From Octopus vulgaris (taxonomy: Eukaryota), in NCBI GenBank assembly GCA_951406725.2, contig OX597818.1, forward strand, positions 56,668,001 to 56,732,000: 64,000 nucleotides of DNA, read 5' to 3'. Each line of letters starts with the position of its first letter. Within the stretch, counting starts at the first letter, position 1. The translations under genes were made by a program, and so were the position numbers. The notes under the pieces were generated by a model, which searched no databases, had not been told where the DNA came from, and saw only the letters and a list, made by a program, of their open reading frames with translations. Shown here in pieces: positions 13,295-45,149 of this stretch.

Positions 13295-14586
13295 TCAGGT
13301 CATCCCATAAGTTCTGTCCGAATTTTGAATAAAGAAAACAAGTGATCAATTGTTATAAGTAATTTGAAATTTAATCATCAATGTACTTTCCCTGATTATC
13401 TATGACTTCCTTCCATCTATTTACAAGCTTTTTAATCCCATCAATGTAAAACTCTTTGGTTTCAAAGCGAAGAACTCTGAAATGTCAGTTTCGACCTCCT
13501 CCTGGCCTGCGAAAGTTATGTTCCCAAATGATTCTGTAAACTACGAAATAAATGGTAGTCTGAAGGAGCAAGGTCAGGAGAATAAGGTGGATGAGGAATT
13601 TTTTTCTCAGCCAAGCTCTTCGATCTTCTGTGATGTGATCTTTGCTGTGTGGGGTCGCGCATTGTCCTAATGAAACATCACTCCTTTTCGATTCCCTAAG
13701 ACGGGTCTTTTTTTCTTCAAAGCTTCGTTCAAACGCTCTAATTTCTAACAGCAGACTTGAGCATTGATTGTTGCATTAGGTGGTAACAATTCAAAGTGAA
13801 TTACACCTTTGCAATCCATCAGATAGAGAGAAGAACCTTTTTTTCCATGAAGTTCCCTTCTTGGTTGTGGTTGAGCTTTTTCCCTTTTACCAAGCCACTG
13901 TTTACGACGTTTAACATTTTGATAGATCCATTTTTCATCACTAGTCACAAGTCTATCCAAAAAAAAGGGTGAAATGTGTTTGCAAGAATGGAGAGAAGAG
14001 CAGATGTCAACTCGGGATTTGTGGTTGTTTTCGGACAATTCATGAGGCACCCATTTTCCAAGTTTAGGAACCATTCTAAGTTGTTGAAGATGACGATGAA
14101 CAGTTGTATGGTTTGAACTAAGCTTTATTGCCAATTCTTCAACTGATAATGCAGGATTTTCTTCAAGTAATGCCCCAAGGAGCTTATCATGAAACTCAAC
14201 TGGACGTCCTGTTCAATCTTCATCTTCAAGGCTGAAATCTCCACTTCTGAATTTTGTAAATCATCTTCTGCAAGTTCTTTCATTCCAGCATTCTTTCCCA
14301 TAAACTGAGTGTATGTTTCAAGTCGCTTTGGCTCCAAAGTTTCCTTTTTTTGAATTCATAAAGCATTATGCGCCTTAAATGCTCTTTGGATACTTCCATG
14401 TTAGAAAGAGTTTTAATCAAAGAAATTTTAATTCTATTATTCTGTAAAATAATATTTAATTAGTTTAAATGTACAAAAATGCATTAAAATAATTATTAAT
14501 TCCATTAAACATTCTAAAATAATCTTAAATTTCATTTAATTTTTTAAAAAAAGGTAACAACGGACAAAACTTATGGGATGACCTGA
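13295..14586 (-). mobile_element. Full-length mariner transposon (1292 bp) with a decayed transposase at ~14399-13371
   Basis: TIRs tcaggtcatcccataagttctgtccg / cggacaaaacttatgggatgacctga with TA on both sides. Motifs MEVSKEHLRRIMLYEF, WVPHEL, TSDEKW and DNARPH. Several frameshifts and stops. Confidence 0.93.
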
Positions 14587-19762: not shown

Positions 19763-20145
19763 AAAGATTGTTTGCCAACATAACATGGCAGTCCTGGATT
19801 AGGACGAATGTTGCTGTAATTTAGCCCCAGGAGACATCCTCTCCAGTTGACTTTTTTTCATTATCATTGAGGTTTACTATTCTAGGTATGGTTGGTTCAA
19901 GACTGTTTATGTTCATATTCACTGCTAACCTGGGAGCATATTTGAAGGCCTTTCCCCCATCCATCACCTGTTGTTGATGCATGCCAGGATTTGTCCGGAA
20001 CTTATGACACTGCATCTTCAAACCCTGATGGGAGAGATGTGGCAAGCGGCAAAGATCAACATGTTAAACCTGGTCGATTGGTCAAAGCCAAAAGACCTTC
20101 AAACATTTAGTCTGGGTTGGAACCAGGCCATAATAAAAAATAATA

Positions 20146-28867: not shown

Positions 28868-31031
28868 TATATATATATATATATATATGTGTGTATGTAT
28901 GTGTGTGTGTGTGTGTATGTGTGTATATATATATATATTTCTATATAACTCTGCCAAATCAAGATTGGAGCCTGGTGCAGCCATCTGGTTTGCCAGTCCT
29001 CAGTCAAATCGTCCAACCCATGCTAGCATAGAAAGTGGACGTTAAACGATGATGATGATGATGATGTATTTATGCATCCCCATCATCATCATCGTTTAAC
29101 ATCTGCCTGTCACGCTAGCATGGGTGGGACGGTTTCACAAGAGCCAACCAGGCAGAAGCATTCACCAGACTGCTGTAACTGTTTTGGCAGGATTTTTACA
29201 GCTGGATGCCCTTCCTAGCATTGGTGCTAGGAAGGACATCCAGTGTGGACTGCGTGCTTTTAAGTGGCACCTGCACTAATAGGGTCACCAAGTACTTACA
29301 AAAAAAAAAACCCAAAAGAGGGCATTGGAGGAGGTGATCTTGTGTCGGATGATGAAGATTATAGTGAGATAGAAAGAAGTGTCTTAGTGTAGAGGAAGTA
29401 CAAGGGAGGAGGCATGGCTGTGTGGTTAAGAAGCTTACTGCTTGCAGTCTCAGGTTCAATCTCACCACACGGCACCTCAGGTGAATGTCTTCTGCAATAG
29501 TCGCAAGTCAAGCAAAGCCCTGTGAATGCCTTTGGTTGATGGAAACTGAGAGAAGCCTATAGTGTGTATGTATGTGAATGCGTATGTGTATGTGTGTGCA
29601 CATGTGTATGTGTGAGTTTGTGTGTGCGTGTGCATACATTCATGTGTGTGTGTTTGTGTATGCGACTCTCTTTGTCTTGACATTATGTTATGACTGTGAA
29701 CAGGGATCAACATCATACAAGCAATGTCATTTGTTTCCACGATGCAGGTGTAGCTGTGTGGTAAGACTTCTGCTTCTCAACCACATGGCTCTGGGTTCAG
29801 TTCCACTGCGTGGCACCTAGGTTTGGGCAAGTGTCTTCTACTAAAACTCTGGGTTGACCAAAGCAGGAGTGGCTGTGTGGTAAGTAGCTTGCTTACCAAC
29901 CACATGGTTCTGGGTTTAGTCCCACTGCATGGCACCTTGGGCAAGTGTCTTCTACTATAACCTTGGGCCAACTGAAGCCTTCAGAGTGGATTCAGTAGAT
30001 GGAAACTGAAAGAAGCCTGTCATATATATGTGTGCGAGTGTGTCTGTGTCTGTGTTTGTCCTCCACCACTGTTTGGTAACTGGTGATGGTTTGTTTGCAT
30101 CCTCATAACTTAGTGGTTCAGCAAAGAGAACAACAGAATACATACCCTGCTTAAACAATAGAAAAGAAGGAAAAAAGTACTGGGGTGAGGTGGGGGGTCA
30201 ATTCATCCAATAAAGACATTCTTCGAAGTGGTGCCCCAACATGGCTACAGTCTAATTTAACAAAACAAGTAAAAAATAAAAGATAAAGGACGAAAAACAT
30301 GTCTGGCCAGGGGTGGGGGTGATATCACCTTGGTCGGAAAGAGGTAAGGGTTGGTGACAGGAAGGGCATCCAGCTGTAGAAACATCTGCCTTGGAAAATT
30401 CCATCCAATCCATGCCAGCATGGAAAAGCAGACATTCAAATGATGATGATGATGATGATGTTAATGACAATGGTGGTGGTGGTGGTGATGAATAGTAAAA
30501 GAAAATAGGATAATTAACAAGGTCAGTTTGTGGTACTTATAGCAAATATTTTGATGGTGTAATGTCAGGAATTAGGTAGATGGGATGGGGGGACTCAGGG
30601 GGGGGGGAAGAAATTAACGAATGGGAATGGAACGTTTTTTGCGACTTGTTAAATGGCAATGATTACTATTCTATGGTGTTATTGAGCACAAACACATATT
30701 TACACACATACACACATATGCATGTATATTTAATGTATGCGAGCATATATATGTGTGTTTATATATATATATGTATGTATATATGTGAAATTTAATAAAG
30801 TATTATTACCATGATTATTATTAATAATAATAATAATAAAGTGGTGAATAAGTTTAACCTATATAGGTAAAATATACAAATAAATAGAGTACTGAAATAG
30901 TGAGAAATTTGTGGTTTTGGAGTGTTAACTCCTCTTTCTAGCAAGTAGTATTCCAGTACCCTACTTTATATATATATATATATGTATATATATAAATCTC
31001 TGAGCGAGTTATAAACAGTAGCTGCACAACA

Positions 31032-31416
31032 TCGTGAAGTATATTTGCCACCTAAATAAGGCTAACCCTTAAGGGTTGATGTTACTGTAGCTTGTAGCCC
31101 TAGGAAGACATCTCCTCCAGCTGGCTATTGACACACTATCTGTGCTCTTTCAGTATATATATATTTGCATTGAGAACCACTTCCCATCACCAACCAGTGG
31201 TTGTCACACGCTGATGACAGGTCAATATCCAGAAACTCGGGTCCGTGTGTATCACGTCAGGTTGGAGATGGGAACGATGACTTCCCTTTGCAAATACTGA
31301 TAGGGCACAGAAAGTGTGTCAATAGCCAACTGGAGAAGATGTCTTCCTGGGGCTACAAGCTACAGTAGCATCACCCTTAAGGGCTAGCCACATTTAGGTG
31401 GCAAATATACTTACGA
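31032..31416. repeat. ~385-bp foldback element between (TA)n tracts
   Basis: aagtatatttgccacctaaat...cccttaaggg...gacacact.tctgtgc pairs with gcacaga.agtgtgtc...cccttaaggg...atttaggtggcaaatatactt. Pairing continues inward (ttcccatc/gatgggaa, ccaacc/ggttgg). Confidence 0.92.
31205..31249 (+). ncRNA. Type I hammerhead ribozyme motif at the foldback apex
   Basis: cacacg-CTGATGA-caggtcaatatcca-GAAA-ctcggg-TC-cgtgtg. Perfect 6-bp stem I, near-palindromic stem III (ACTCGGGT), GUC site, weak stem II. Confidence 0.8.
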
Positions 31417-31417
31417 G

Positions 31418-31465
<48 letters not shown>

Positions 31466-31468
<3 letters not shown>

Positions 31469-42365: not shown

Positions 42366-43318
42366 ATAAGGACCGAGATAATTGAAACTACCTTCCTATT
42401 TAATTGCAATCTAAATTAGATTACCTTCTTATTAATGACCTGTCGACAGACAATATTTCGTTAGGCAACCATGACATACTACAATGTATATTAAACACTT
42501 TTATAAGTCAATACCACGTCCTACTGTGTTAGCAGTGCTACTACATCACTTGTTAAGATTACCTCTCTTTACTCTTTGACTTGTTTCAGTCATTTGACTG
42601 CGGCCATGCTGGAGCACCGCCTTTAATCGAGCAACGCGACCCCGGGACTTATTCTTTTGTAAGCCCAGTACTTATTCAATCGGTCTCTTTTGCCGAACCG
42701 CTACGTAACGGGGATGTAAACACACCAGCACCGGTTGTCAAGCAATGCTAGGGGAACAAACACAGACACACAAACAAACACACACATACATCATCATCAT
42801 CATCATCGTTTAACGTCCGTTCTCCATGCTAGCATGGGTTGGACGGTTCGACCGGGGATCTGGGAAGCCAGAAGGCTGCACCAGGCTCCGGTCTTATCTG
42901 GCAAAGTTTCTACAGCTGGATGCCCTTCCTAACGCCAACCACTCCGAGAGTGTAGTGGATGCTTTTTACGTGCGACATACATATATACATATATATACAT
43001 ATATATATATACGACAGGCTTCTTTCAGTTTCCGTCTACCAAATCCACTCACAAGGCTTTGGTCAGCCCGGGGCTATAGCAGAAGACACTTGCCCAAAAT
43101 GCCACGCAGTGGGACTGAACCTGGAACCATGTGGTTGGCAAGCAAGCTACTTACCACACAGCCACTCCTGCGCCTAAAGATTTGCTATAGAAATTATGGC
43201 CGGCACTGATTTTTCTTATGGTGTTTCATATCCAAGATACCTGATGTAAACAATGAAATCGAACATTATTTACATTATTTACATTTGATAGATATTTGTC
43301 CTCATCTTGTTTGTTGTT

Positions 43319-43617
43319 AACACAACCTTTCGGCTGATATACCCTCCAGCCTTCATCAGGTGTCTTGGGGAAATTTCGAACCTGGGTTCTCATTCCTAAG
43401 GTATTTTTTTGATGTTATTATTATAACATATGGCGTAGTGGTTAACAGCATGGGCTACTAACCCCAAGATTACGAGTTCGATTCCAAGTAGTGACCTGAA
43501 CAATAATAATAATAATGATAATAACAACTTCAAAAAATACCTTAGGAATGAGAACCCAGGTTCGAAATTTCTCCAAGACACCTGATGAAGGCTGGAGGGT
43601 ATATCAGCTGAAACATT
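43319..43617. mobile_element. Composite element: inverted ~100-bp arms, each carrying a hammerhead motif, flanking a tRNA-like Pol III head (43431-43500)
   Basis: Left arm 43324-43424 is the reverse complement of right arm ~43515-43617. Minus-strand HHR 43319-43364 is gacac-CTGATGA-a-ggctg..cagcc-GAAA-GG-TT-gtgtt. Plus-strand HHR 43577-43617 is truncated after GAAACATT. A box tggcgtagtgg, B box gagttcgattcc. Confidence 0.85.
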
Positions 43618-45149
43618 TTGGGGGTCAATAAAATAAGTACCAGTTGAGCACTGGGTCAATGTAATCGATTTAATCCGTTTGTCTGTCCTTGTTTGTCCCC
43701 TCTATGTTTAGCCCCTTGTGGGTAGTAATGAAATAGGTATTTCTGAACTTTCTCCCCATCAGGATATTCAGTACTTATGTTTCCTTTTACACATGTTGCA
43801 TTATTGCCCTTATGAAATTCCTGAAGCATGCAATGCAGAATATGCAGCCACTAAAGGTCATGACTTCCATGGGCTATCAGACAGAACTTACCCCTGACCC
43901 CCAAATTGCTGGCCTTGTGCCAAAATTTGAAACCAATATTTCATATAGCATTCTCAAGGCAAAAATTACTTTTGATTAAAATCAAAGTCATTGAATGAGA
44001 TTGAACCTGCTGTTCCATTGTTACTGATTCTGGTTCAACCTGTTTGGCCCAATGATTCATGTGTCGTTGAAACTGGCCCAGGAAACGAAGAAGAGGAGGA
44101 GGAGAAGAGCCAACAGGATGTAGAGTTCTCGTGATATTTTCAAGGCTTTCCCTGATTTGTTGGTTGGTTGATTCATCATACATACTCACAGTCACTCTCT
44201 AGCAAGATTCCTACCAACGCCCATTATATATATTGCCTTATTTATTACATTTAAACCCACTTGTCATTCAGAATCCAGGCATTCCCCCAAAATAAAAGTA
44301 ATAATAAATATCTGAATATAAACATATATAAAAAGTACAAATTATATAAATCAATGACCTTATTAGCCTCTTTTTGAAATATCTGCAGCCATATCAGCTT
44401 TGCAAAGGAACAAAATGAATACAACATATTAATAAAAGGCACAGGAGTGGCTGTGTGGTAAATAGCTTGTTTACCAACCACATGGTTCTGGGTTCAGTCC
44501 CACTGCGTGGCACCTAGGGCAAGTGTCTTCTACTATAGCCTCGGGCCGACCAAAGCCTTGTGAGTGGATTTGGTAGACAGAAACTGAAAGAAGCCCGTCG
44601 TATATATGTATATATATATATGTATGTGTGTGTATATGTTTATGTGTTTGTGTTTGCACCCCCAACATCGCTTGATAACTGATGTTGGTGTGTTTACGTC
44701 CCCGTAACTCAGCGGTTCAGCAAAAGAGACCGATAAAATAAGTACTAGGCTTACAAAGAATAAAGTCCTGGGGGTCGATTTGTTCGACTAAAGGTGGTGC
44801 TCCAGCATGGCCACAGTCACGACTGAAACAAGTGAAAAAAATGAGTAACCCCCCCACCTTCCACTATTGCATACAAATGCAATATAAGAGAGAGAAATGC
44901 CAAACCATTGGTTGTTGTTTCATTGTTCAATCTTTGTTAAATCCTTTGTTTCATTGTAAAGTCTTTGTTAAATCCTCTTGTTTATTGTTAAAAAAACCCA
45001 TCTATTTGCTGAGTTGTATACAGTGAATAGATTGAAATACAATCATAAAAAGTGGATTGGCAGAAAGTCTGTTGTCTGTAATGTGAAATTCCTTCCAGTC
45101 TTTTACAGGCTTTATGTGTAAATCCCACACAAGTCCATTTTGCTTGTTC

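What the first reader, a model, noticed from the sequence alone, without database searches (positions are those of the whole stretch)
31032..31416. Rod-like ~385-nt foldback crowned by a hammerhead ribozyme
Seen: arms of ~170 bp pair almost continuously into a perfect 6-bp stem I that closes CTGATGA...GAAA-CTCGGG-TC, so the ribozyme is the terminal loop of the rod. Each arm contains its own cccttaaggg palindrome, the unit lies between (TA)n tracts, and I see no TSD or ORF. Established: minimal type I HHRs with palindromic stem III typify Penelope-like elements and retrozymes and can cleave as dimers, and rod-like HHR RNAs recall viroid-like replicons. Inference: this may be an undescribed non-autonomous ribozyme retroelement. 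Self-cleavage would open the hairpin into a long duplex without Dicer. This copy's stem II is weak and may be decayed.
Basis: partly seen in the sequence, partly recalled or inferred. Interest (0 to 1): 0.85.

Follow-up and report, generated by a model that had tools for sequence, protein, structure and literature searches.

The report
Hammerhead retrozyme with Penelope insertion footprint
This long DNA hairpin is one old insertion of a ~355-base, protein-less repeat carrying a hammerhead-ribozyme motif; its two arms are head-to-head partial copies of the same unit, a layout typical of Penelope-like retrotransposons, which likely copy it around the genome.

Summary
The hairpin and the hammerhead motif are real, but the 385-nt rod is not the element. 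It is one insertion of a ~353-360-nt head-to-tail repeat with a type I hammerhead (non-LTR retrozyme type; 1,327 core matches genome-wide). Arms and apex do not co-occur: 0 of 88 loci chosen without regard to the ribozyme have this layout. Family copies show the Penelope-like-element (PLE) footprint: two fixed 3' ends about 46 nt apart, 5' truncation, (TA)n targets and 9-13-bp TSDs. Every inverted pair with both ends intact has one end of each kind (53 of 53 among 60 pairs; 19 of 19 in a very young autonomous PLE). Both arms share one haplotype. A young subfamily (439 identical ribozymes, arrays up to 5 units) matches Rfam Hammerhead_1. This copy's ribozyme is decayed. Likely mechanism: a PLE protein primes both ends of a staggered cut on one multimeric or circular RNA. 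No partner PLE, cleavage or circular RNA was shown. Verdict: new member of a known kind, with useful mechanistic evidence.

The parts
30967..30993 (.). (TA)n target microsatellite, left side
   Evidence: sequence; 46 of 50 young family loci have (TA)n on at least one side
   Evidence: it is the sequence that follows end A inside head-to-tail arrays (L031, L065)
31032..31156 (-). inverted, 5'-truncated copy of the unit (positions 51-175, counted from the cleavage site); no ribozyme
   Evidence: L001 minus segment [51..215]
31152..31156 (.). head-to-head junction; AGTAT fits both arms (microhomology) and lies at the base of the unit's native hairpin
   Evidence: sequence; register to the native hairpin within 3 nt
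31154..31416 (+). sense, 5'-truncated copy of the unit (positions 271-360 then 1-175), ending at 3' end A without tail; subfamily S3
31150..31300 (+). native imperfect hairpin of the unit (about 55 bp) that extends hammerhead helix I
   Evidence: the same upstream arm is present in copies with no inversion
31205..31249 (+). type I hammerhead motif: helix I 31205-31210/31244-31249, core 31211-31217, decayed helix II 31218-31231, GAAA 31232-31235, palindromic helix III 31235-31242, predicted cleavage after 31243
   Evidence: sequence; covariation across subfamilies; young relative matches RF00163; this copy does not
31066..31075 (.). CCCTTAAGGG palindrome in the inverted arm: the same unit position as 31374-31383, copied twice
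31374..31383 (.). CCCTTAAGGG palindrome in the sense arm (unit position about 132)
31419..31466 (.). (TA)n target microsatellite, right side; any TSD is hidden in it

Best explanation
The hairpin is one insertion of a ~355-nt, protein-less head-to-tail repeat with a type I hammerhead motif (retrozyme type), made of two partial copies joined head to head, and it was likely written into the genome by the enzyme of an autonomous Penelope-like element (PLE). Shown: the repeat unit, the arrays, the two fixed 3' ends A and B about 46 nt apart, 5' truncation, (TA)n targeting, 9-13-bp TSDs, one A and one B end in every intact inverted pair, and one shared haplotype across the arms and units of a locus. 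Inferred: (1) array transcripts self-cleave as dimers and circularise, as shown for other retrozymes; (2) a PLE RT/GIY-YIG protein, probably a dimer, makes a staggered cut of about 10-13 bp in AT-rich DNA; (3) both 3'-OH ends prime reverse transcription internally on the same multimeric or circular RNA, one at A and one at B, and read through the uncleaved ribozyme; (4) the two cDNA ends join by short microhomology, giving a head-to-head repeat with a tail on one arm. Here the join fell at the base of the unit's own hairpin, so the ribozyme happens to crown a continuous rod. This copy is old, and its ribozyme is probably inactive.
For: UNIT. 360 nt in L031, 344-nt spacing in L065, 353 nt in the young subfamily with arrays up to 1,795 nt. 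Genome counts: 745 exact arm motifs, 154 exact cores of the older type, 1,327 broad cores, 439 identical young cores; reversed-pattern controls 0. ENDS. Of 34 older inverted pairs, 30 are A+B, none A+A or B+B, 4 have a broken end. Of 26 young inverted loci, 23 are A+B, none A+A or B+B, 3 broken. In the autonomous 775-aa PLE, 19 of 19 inverted pairs carry the tail on exactly one end. TSD of 9-13 bp in 14 of 48 non-(TA)n loci, control mean 0.5. SAME TEMPLATE. At recurrent variant columns of young copies, agreement is 89 of 97 between arms, 124 of 131 within arrays, and 1,983 of 18,612 between loci. Older arms are the same subfamily in 46 of 50 assignable pairs; shared private variants 140 against a control of 48 +/- 6. 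NOT SIMPLE SNAP-BACK. Neither arm contains the other in 14 of 30 older and 7 of 22 young pairs; the window copy is such a case. NOT A CLEAVED LINEAR TEMPLATE. 3' ends lie about 175 and 220 nt from the cleavage site. 5' ends do not pile up at it: 4 of 117 in the 20-nt bin around it. 36 of 50 young loci have a segment longer than one unit. RIBOZYME. The young core matches RF00163 over the full model, 32.2 bits against a gathering score of 34, E 4.4e-6. Helices I and II show two-sided changes, and helix III stays self-complementary as CTCGAG, CTCGGG, CCCGGG and CCATGG in a sister family. PARTNER CLASS PRESENT. Near-identical RT + GIY-YIG PLEs with (TA)n targets and a tail of about 46 nt. LITERATURE. 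PMC11167929 (two internal RT start sites bound the tail; both strands cut and extended; dimer predicted; ribozyme cleavage not needed in vitro); PMC8557442; PMC3846280; PMC7229834.
Against: No autonomous PLE sharing sequence with the unit was found in 89 PLE loci; the hits at L284/L287 and L303 are separate neighbouring insertions, and a weak one (L186, E 0.02) was not followed up. Trans-mobilisation therefore rests on the footprint alone. No cleavage, circle or transcript was shown. Some young loci carry unit-to-unit differences that both arms share (L213, L228, L266). That points to a multimeric template rather than a monomer circle there, and the L228 pattern fits no simple register. 82 of 102 locus-private variants sit in one unit only; these are expected from mutation after insertion and are uninformative. 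A shared haplotype could also come from two RNAs of one source locus or from gene conversion. PMC11167929 saw no difference in start site between strands in vitro, so the strict A+B pairing is not explained by that assay. 31 of 52 pairs remain compatible with snap-back. The covariation set was picked by a core pattern and its members are related, so its shuffle control is lenient.
Confidence: 0.72

Rival explanations
1. Same identity, different route to the inversion: one cDNA folds back on itself (self-priming, possibly on an antisense template), and the PLE endonuclease resolves a DNA intermediate with offset cuts that leave the tail on one side.
For: Proposed in PMC3846280 (self-priming) and PMC8557442 (EN-mediated resolution), passages read. 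It explains the shared haplotype. 16 of 30 older and 15 of 22 young pairs have one arm inside the other. Older junctions cluster at unit positions 37-76: 28 of 72 5' ends at multi-segment loci against 3 of 45 in singles, p = 8e-5.
Against: In 21 of 52 pairs neither arm contains the other, the window copy included. Single copies also end at A or B (25 B and 19 A of 49). PMC11167929 maps both tail boundaries to RT start sites on RNA.
Confidence: 0.17
2. The unit is only the terminal repeat (pLTR) of an autonomous PLE that I did not find, and the copies are its 5'-truncated remains.
For: Same footprint as PLEs. Only a few of the genome's PLE families were examined: 150 of 6,136 GIY-YIG candidates scored, 89 loci held. 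bioRxiv 10.64898/2026.07.22.740005 derives retrozymes from pLTRs.
Against: Upstream of the ribozyme, copies run on into the tail and the next unit, not into an ORF. Young arrays reach 5 units, and the unit's longest stop-free frame is 66 codons. Single copies share no common upstream sequence apart from one unrelated repeat in three loci. Derivation from an ancestral pLTR stays possible.
Confidence: 0.06
3. One reading: the 385-nt rod with an apical ribozyme is itself a selected RNA unit (viroid-like, or a self-opening duplex precursor).
For: Very stable fold. About 10 loci among the similarity- or ribozyme-selected sets have a similar in-register rod.
Against: 0 of 34 unbiased pairs (0 of 88 loci) have it. 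Junctions differ from locus to locus. The arms have diverged like neutral copies. Core positions in inserted copies change at the background rate: 23 of 614 against 927 of 22,072; 29 of 45 cores intact. This copy has no Rfam match.
Confidence: 0.03
4. An ordinary MITE (DNA transposon derivative) with long terminal inverted repeats and a variable centre, inserting at TA.
For: Long inverted arms, TA flanks, variable centre.
Against: The ends are asymmetric (tail on one side). 49 of 88 loci have one orientation only. 5' ends are scattered, head-to-tail arrays exist, and TSDs are 9-13 bp.
Confidence: 0.02

Closest known systems
Metazoan non-LTR retrozymes (PMC7229834, passages and sections 14 and 17 read; bioRxiv 10.64898/2026.07.22.740005, parts 1-3 of 5 read)
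   Same: Protein-less head-to-tail repeat of about 350 nt with one type I hammerhead per unit; monomers, dimers and multimers; coexists with PLEs. Mussel units are about 350-390 bp.
   Different: In what I read, these papers link retrozymes to PLEs by shared ribozyme type, co-occurrence and pLTR phylogeny, and leave the mobilisation mechanism open. Here the copies carry the PLE integration footprint itself. No parent pLTR was found here, and circles were not shown.
EN+ Penelope-like elements (PMC8557442, PMC3846280, PMC8969392: passages; PMC11167929: parts 1-2 of 4)
   Same: 5' truncation, partial tandems, head-to-head inverted copy, tail on one end, 8-10-bp TSDs reported in a rotifer, (TA)n or AT-rich targets, two internal RT start sites.
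   Different: No RT/EN ORF; the tail is about 40-46 nt rather than 30-40; a canonical-type hammerhead rather than the minimal PLE variants.
Non-autonomous Chlamys PLEs such as MRC1 of Chlamydomonas (PMC8557442, passage)
   Same: Non-autonomous PLE derivatives forming multicopy head-to-tail insertions.
   Different: Those generally share 3' sequence with an autonomous family, and most Chlamys lack hammerheads; here no sequence link to a partner was found.
Rfam RF00163 Hammerhead_1; canonical metazoan type I hammerhead (PMC4209133, passages)
   Same: 6-bp helix I, 4-5-bp helix II, short palindromic helix III expected to work as a dimer; the young subfamily aligns over model positions 1-45.
   Different: Older subfamilies, including this copy's, have a C.A opposition where G10.1-C11.1 is usual, and this copy has two more changes in helix II; it gives no Rfam match.

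Membership tests
Non-LTR retrozyme | Short (about 150-400 nt) head-to-tail repeat unit | tested here: met
   344-360-nt unit in older copies, 353 nt in young, arrays up to 5 units
Non-LTR retrozyme | Type I hammerhead in each unit | tested here: met
   RF00163 full-model match in consecutive young units, 32.2 bits, just under the gathering score of 34; covariation. Decayed in the window copy
Non-LTR retrozyme | No protein-coding capacity, no LTR | tested here: met
   longest stop-free frame 66 codons in the young unit and 69 in the window insertion
Non-LTR retrozyme | Self-cleavage of the RNA | not testable with these tools
   needs in vitro transcription
Non-LTR retrozyme | Expression as linear and circular monomer RNA | tested here: inconclusive
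   no run on record as RNA was listed; only contigs were available
PLE-mobilised element | Fixed 3' ends with an optional tail, variable 5' truncation | tested here: met
   ends at A (about 175) or B (about 220) in 44 of 49 older singles and 30 of 34 older pairs; young set
PLE-mobilised element | Head-to-head inverted 5'-truncated copy with the tail on one end | tested here: met
   53 of 53 pairs with two intact ends, among 60 pairs
PLE-mobilised element | Short TSD and AT-rich or microsatellite target | tested here: met
   9-13 bp in 14 of 48 non-(TA)n loci, control mean 0.5; 46 of 50 young loci at (TA)n. Not visible in the window copy
PLE-mobilised element | Identified autonomous partner sharing cis sequence | tested here: inconclusive
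   none linked in 89 PLE loci from a few families; most families not examined
Autonomous PLE | RT + GIY-YIG ORF | tested here: not met
   no ORF in the unit or the insertion
MITE | Symmetric terminal inverted repeats at both ends of most copies | tested here: not met
   49 of 88 loci single-orientation; ends asymmetric
Viroid-like rod RNA | A fixed rod-shaped unit with the ribozyme as a constant part | tested here: not met
   0 of 88 unbiased loci share the layout

The most novel reading that the evidence does not exclude
A recently active ribozyme circle is retrotransposed by a PLE dimer that primes both ends of one staggered DNA break at two sites about 46 nt apart on the same circular or multimeric RNA and rolls round it. 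The hundreds of near-identical insertions would be in vivo evidence that animal retrozymes ride on PLEs, and that PLE head-to-head repeats with a one-sided tail arise by twin target-primed reverse transcription rather than self-priming. The partner would recognise structure or spacing, not shared sequence.
Probability: 0.45. Interest if true: 0.7.

Novelty: new member of a known kind. Interest (0 to 1): 0.45.

Why it matters
The rod itself is a by-product. The family matters for two questions that the papers I read leave open: which machinery moves animal retrozymes, and how PLEs make inverted repeats with a one-sided tail. A 353-nt cis-element with hundreds of 96-99.9%-identical copies, beside a PLE whose copies are 98-100% identical and whose tail has about the same length, is a small substrate-enzyme pair that can be tested in an existing PLE in vitro assay. 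It also warns annotators: such insertions look like MITEs or viroid-like rods when seen singly.

Tried and rejected
Rfam on the window found no hammerhead; the other hits are weak matches to simple repeats.

Partner search. L227 (two ribozymes 3,250 bp apart) is a duplication inside a satellite, not a PLE. L284/L287 and L303 have a unit beside a PLE, but as separate insertions. The unit did not align to the 775-aa PLE's ends better than shuffles did (51 and 172 of 200 shuffles scored as high). Folding the A-B regions showed no obviously shared structure. One recalled Pfam accession was not in the library.

Expression. No RNA holder was listed. Contigs of three guessed-RNA runs and one run of unknown kind hold family sequence, but contigs cannot show ends, strand or circles, so I use this neither for nor against.

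Other. Purifying selection on the core within inserted copies was not seen. The junction hot spot of older pairs was not evident in young ones.

Rows dropped. C28 loci that duplicate one insertion, and loci fetched twice, were left out. L227 and L206 (an apparent duplicate of L201) were left out of the young counts. The unbiased set is 88 loci from the first 100 listed of 745 matches (contigs C1-C2); one locus already held (L057) and the last three were not included, and an arm motif picks two-armed loci more often than one-armed ones. The young set (50 loci from the first 100 listed of 439 matches) was picked by an intact ribozyme, which biases it to long arms.

Earlier scan findings were not available. 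Supplements of the bioRxiv preprint could not be seen, and I did not open those of the PMC papers; they might list cephalopod families or insertion structures.

Full report
OBSERVATION. The stretch 31032-31416 folds as one long hairpin (-245.2 kcal/mol, z -27). At its apex a 6-bp helix closes a hammerhead core with a palindromic helix III and predicted cleavage after 31243. Rfam finds no hammerhead in this copy. The genome is 2.8 Gb in 227 contigs. From SINE-like repeats in the window I recall it as an octopus-type genome; no call shows this.

WHAT THE UNIT IS. A DNA search gave 89 matches from 40 scored of 5,125 candidates. Copies with more upstream sequence run from the ribozyme back into the sequence that lies beyond the element's 3' end, and then into another unit. 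The element is therefore a head-to-tail repeat: 360 nt in L031, 344-nt spacing in L065. Numbered from the cleavage site, the window insertion is a minus-strand segment [51..215] (30992-31156) joined head to head to a plus-strand segment [271..360, 1..175] (31154-31416). The outer ~123 bp of the rod are two copies of one sequence, 8.1% diverged. The inner ~55 bp are the unit's own imperfect hairpin, which extends helix I. The junction lies at the base of that hairpin, on a 5-nt microhomology, which is why the rod looks continuous.

DO ARMS AND APEX CO-OCCUR? No. I took 88 loci by an arm 27-mer, without regard to the ribozyme (745 exact matches, control 0; the first 100 listed, less one locus already held and the last three). 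Of these, 49 are single-orientation, 34 are simple inverted pairs and 5 are more complex. A ribozyme is present in 14 of 34 pairs and in 29 of 49 singles. None of the 34 pairs has the window's layout within 10 nt of the native register; about 10 loci in the similarity- or ribozyme-selected sets do. The rod with an apical ribozyme is a recurrent minority outcome, not the unit.

A YOUNG SUBFAMILY. A looser core pattern gave 1,327 matches, among them 439 identical cores with a perfect 5-bp helix II. That unit is 353 nt and 273 positions identical to L031. Most segments are 96-99.9% identical to one natural unit, and arrays reach 1,795 nt. It matches RF00163 over the whole model at 32.2 bits (gathering 34). 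Across 26 distinct ribozymes, 91.3% of cells pair and 19 cells show two-sided changes, above all 500 shuffles; the set was picked by a core pattern and is related, so this control is lenient. Helix III stays self-complementary in four forms. PMC4209133 (passages) describes such short palindromic helices III as needing a dimer. In unbiased older copies 29 of 45 cores are intact, and core positions change at the background rate (0.0375 against 0.042). Inserted copies thus decay neutrally, and selection shows only between source lineages. The window's subfamily has C.A at the base of helix II, and this copy has two further changes there. It is probably inactive (inference).

THE INTEGRATION FOOTPRINT. 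3' ends fall at A (about 175) or B (about 220); 5' ends are scattered. Older pairs: 30 of 34 A+B, none A+A or B+B, 4 with a broken end. Young inverted loci: 23 of 26 A+B, 3 broken. 46 of 50 young loci touch (TA)n. Where the flanks are complex, 14 of 48 loci show a 9-13-bp duplication, a few of them low in complexity (shuffled control mean 0.5, maximum 3). These are the marks described for PLEs: an inverted 5'-truncated copy, a 30-40-bp tail often on one end only, microsatellite bias (PMC8557442, passages) and 8-10-bp TSDs (PMC3846280, passages). The genome holds abundant GIY-YIG PLEs, including families with 781-aa and 775-aa RT + GIY-YIG frames. The 775-aa family has a 4,271-bp tandem unit, copies 98-100% identical, (TA)n targets and a tail of about 46 nt, whose far end is blurred by TA. 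In 19 of 19 of its inverted pairs the tail is on exactly one end. No sequence link between the unit and any PLE was found in 89 loci.

MECHANISM. In young loci, arms agree at 89 of 97 informative comparisons and array units at 124 of 131, against 1,983 of 18,612 between loci; 14 locus-private variants are in both arms, of 62 at columns that both arms cover. Older arms are the same subfamily in 46 of 50 assignable pairs (12 more not assignable). Both arms therefore come from one source haplotype. Simple snap-back requires one arm to contain the other; this fails in 14 of 30 older and 7 of 22 young pairs, including the window copy. The cDNA does not respect the cleavage site: 4 of 117 older 5' ends lie in the bin around it, and 36 of 50 young loci hold a segment longer than one unit. 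PMC11167929 (parts 1-2 of 4) showed that a PLE protein cuts and extends both target strands, starts at two internal RNA sites that bound the tail, is predicted to be a dimer, and does not need ribozyme cleavage in vitro. The simplest joint reading is twin target-primed reverse transcription: one target end starts at A, the other at B, on one multimeric or circular RNA, and the two cDNA ends join by short microhomology (young junction overlaps -8 to +6, mostly 0-5). This step is inferred. Against a pure monomer circle: L213, L228 and L266 have unit-to-unit differences shared by both arms, and L228 fits no simple register. Two RNAs from one source locus, or gene conversion, are not excluded. Self-priming with endonuclease resolution (PMC3846280, PMC8557442) remains the main rival and fits 31 of 52 pairs.

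COMPARISON AND NOVELTY. The unit meets the tested features of non-LTR retrozymes (PMC7229834: passages and sections 14 and 17); cleavage and circles were not tested. A 2026 preprint (10.64898/2026.07.22.740005, parts 1-3 of 5) argues from co-occurrence and phylogeny that such repeats are non-autonomous PLE derivatives, and leaves the mechanism open. PMC8969392 (passages) says they may rely on PLEs. Six literature searches listed no paper that, by title, abstract start or the passages I read, reports this family, PLE-type tails, inversions and TSDs on a retrozyme, or a count of the A+B rule. Subscription journals, repeat databases and supplements were not seen; PMC8967140 was seen only as a listing. 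The one-sided tail is already known qualitatively for PLEs.

VERDICT. Observation partly confirmed; interpretation partly supported. New member of a known kind. Confidence is about 0.9 for the identity and the PLE footprint, and about 0.72 for the whole account including paired priming. Interest 0.45: the rod is incidental, but the family makes two open mechanistic questions testable.

Noticed in passing
window 43263-43620: A second, unrelated hammerhead-bearing repeat as an inverted pair (cores at 43359 minus and 43582 plus); multi-copy, 83 matches from 40 scored of 6,591 candidates. Probably another PLE-type or retrozyme family.
   Followed up: partly
L332 (G000:C1:27840400-27850300) and L275-L280: Two very young EN+ PLE families (775-aa and 781-aa RT + GIY-YIG frames) each have an extra upstream open frame of about 450-480 codons overlapping the RT frame, with no convincing Pfam match for the one tested. 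Their hammerhead-like cores are degenerate (CCGAAGA, TTGATAA). The 775-aa frame has a CX4CxxC linker like Neptune/Nematis. PMC8557442 describes canonical EN+ PLEs as single-ORF.
   Followed up: partly
L303:7-755 (G000:C1:42384110-42384858): A diverged sister unit of about 360 nt, with apparently identical copies within the locus, a CCGACGA core and CCATGG helix III; same tail-plus-inversion layout; a young PLE is inserted in the (TA)n at its end.
   Followed up: partly
G000:C28:6.48-22.65 Mb (L003, L004, L006-L009, L013, L015-L018, L020-L025, L027, L029, L030): One inverted insertion, with its junction inside the ribozyme, repeated with its flanks at 13 places on one contig: a segmental duplication.
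   Followed up: no
L267:4680 and L268:4860 (minus strand): Two further hammerhead-like motifs sharing the CTCGAG helix III but no similarity to the unit.
   Followed up: partly
L227 (G000:C2:202400500-202409500): Young units embedded in a long AT-rich satellite that is itself duplicated at about 3.2 kb spacing.
   Followed up: no
window 19822-19855: A 35-nt fragment of the same unit on the minus strand.
   Followed up: no
window 6315-7226, 8706-9278, 13745-14212, 29744-29978: Fragments that look, from recall, like LINE RT C-termini, a mariner-type transposase and tandem SINE copies; not tested.
   Followed up: no
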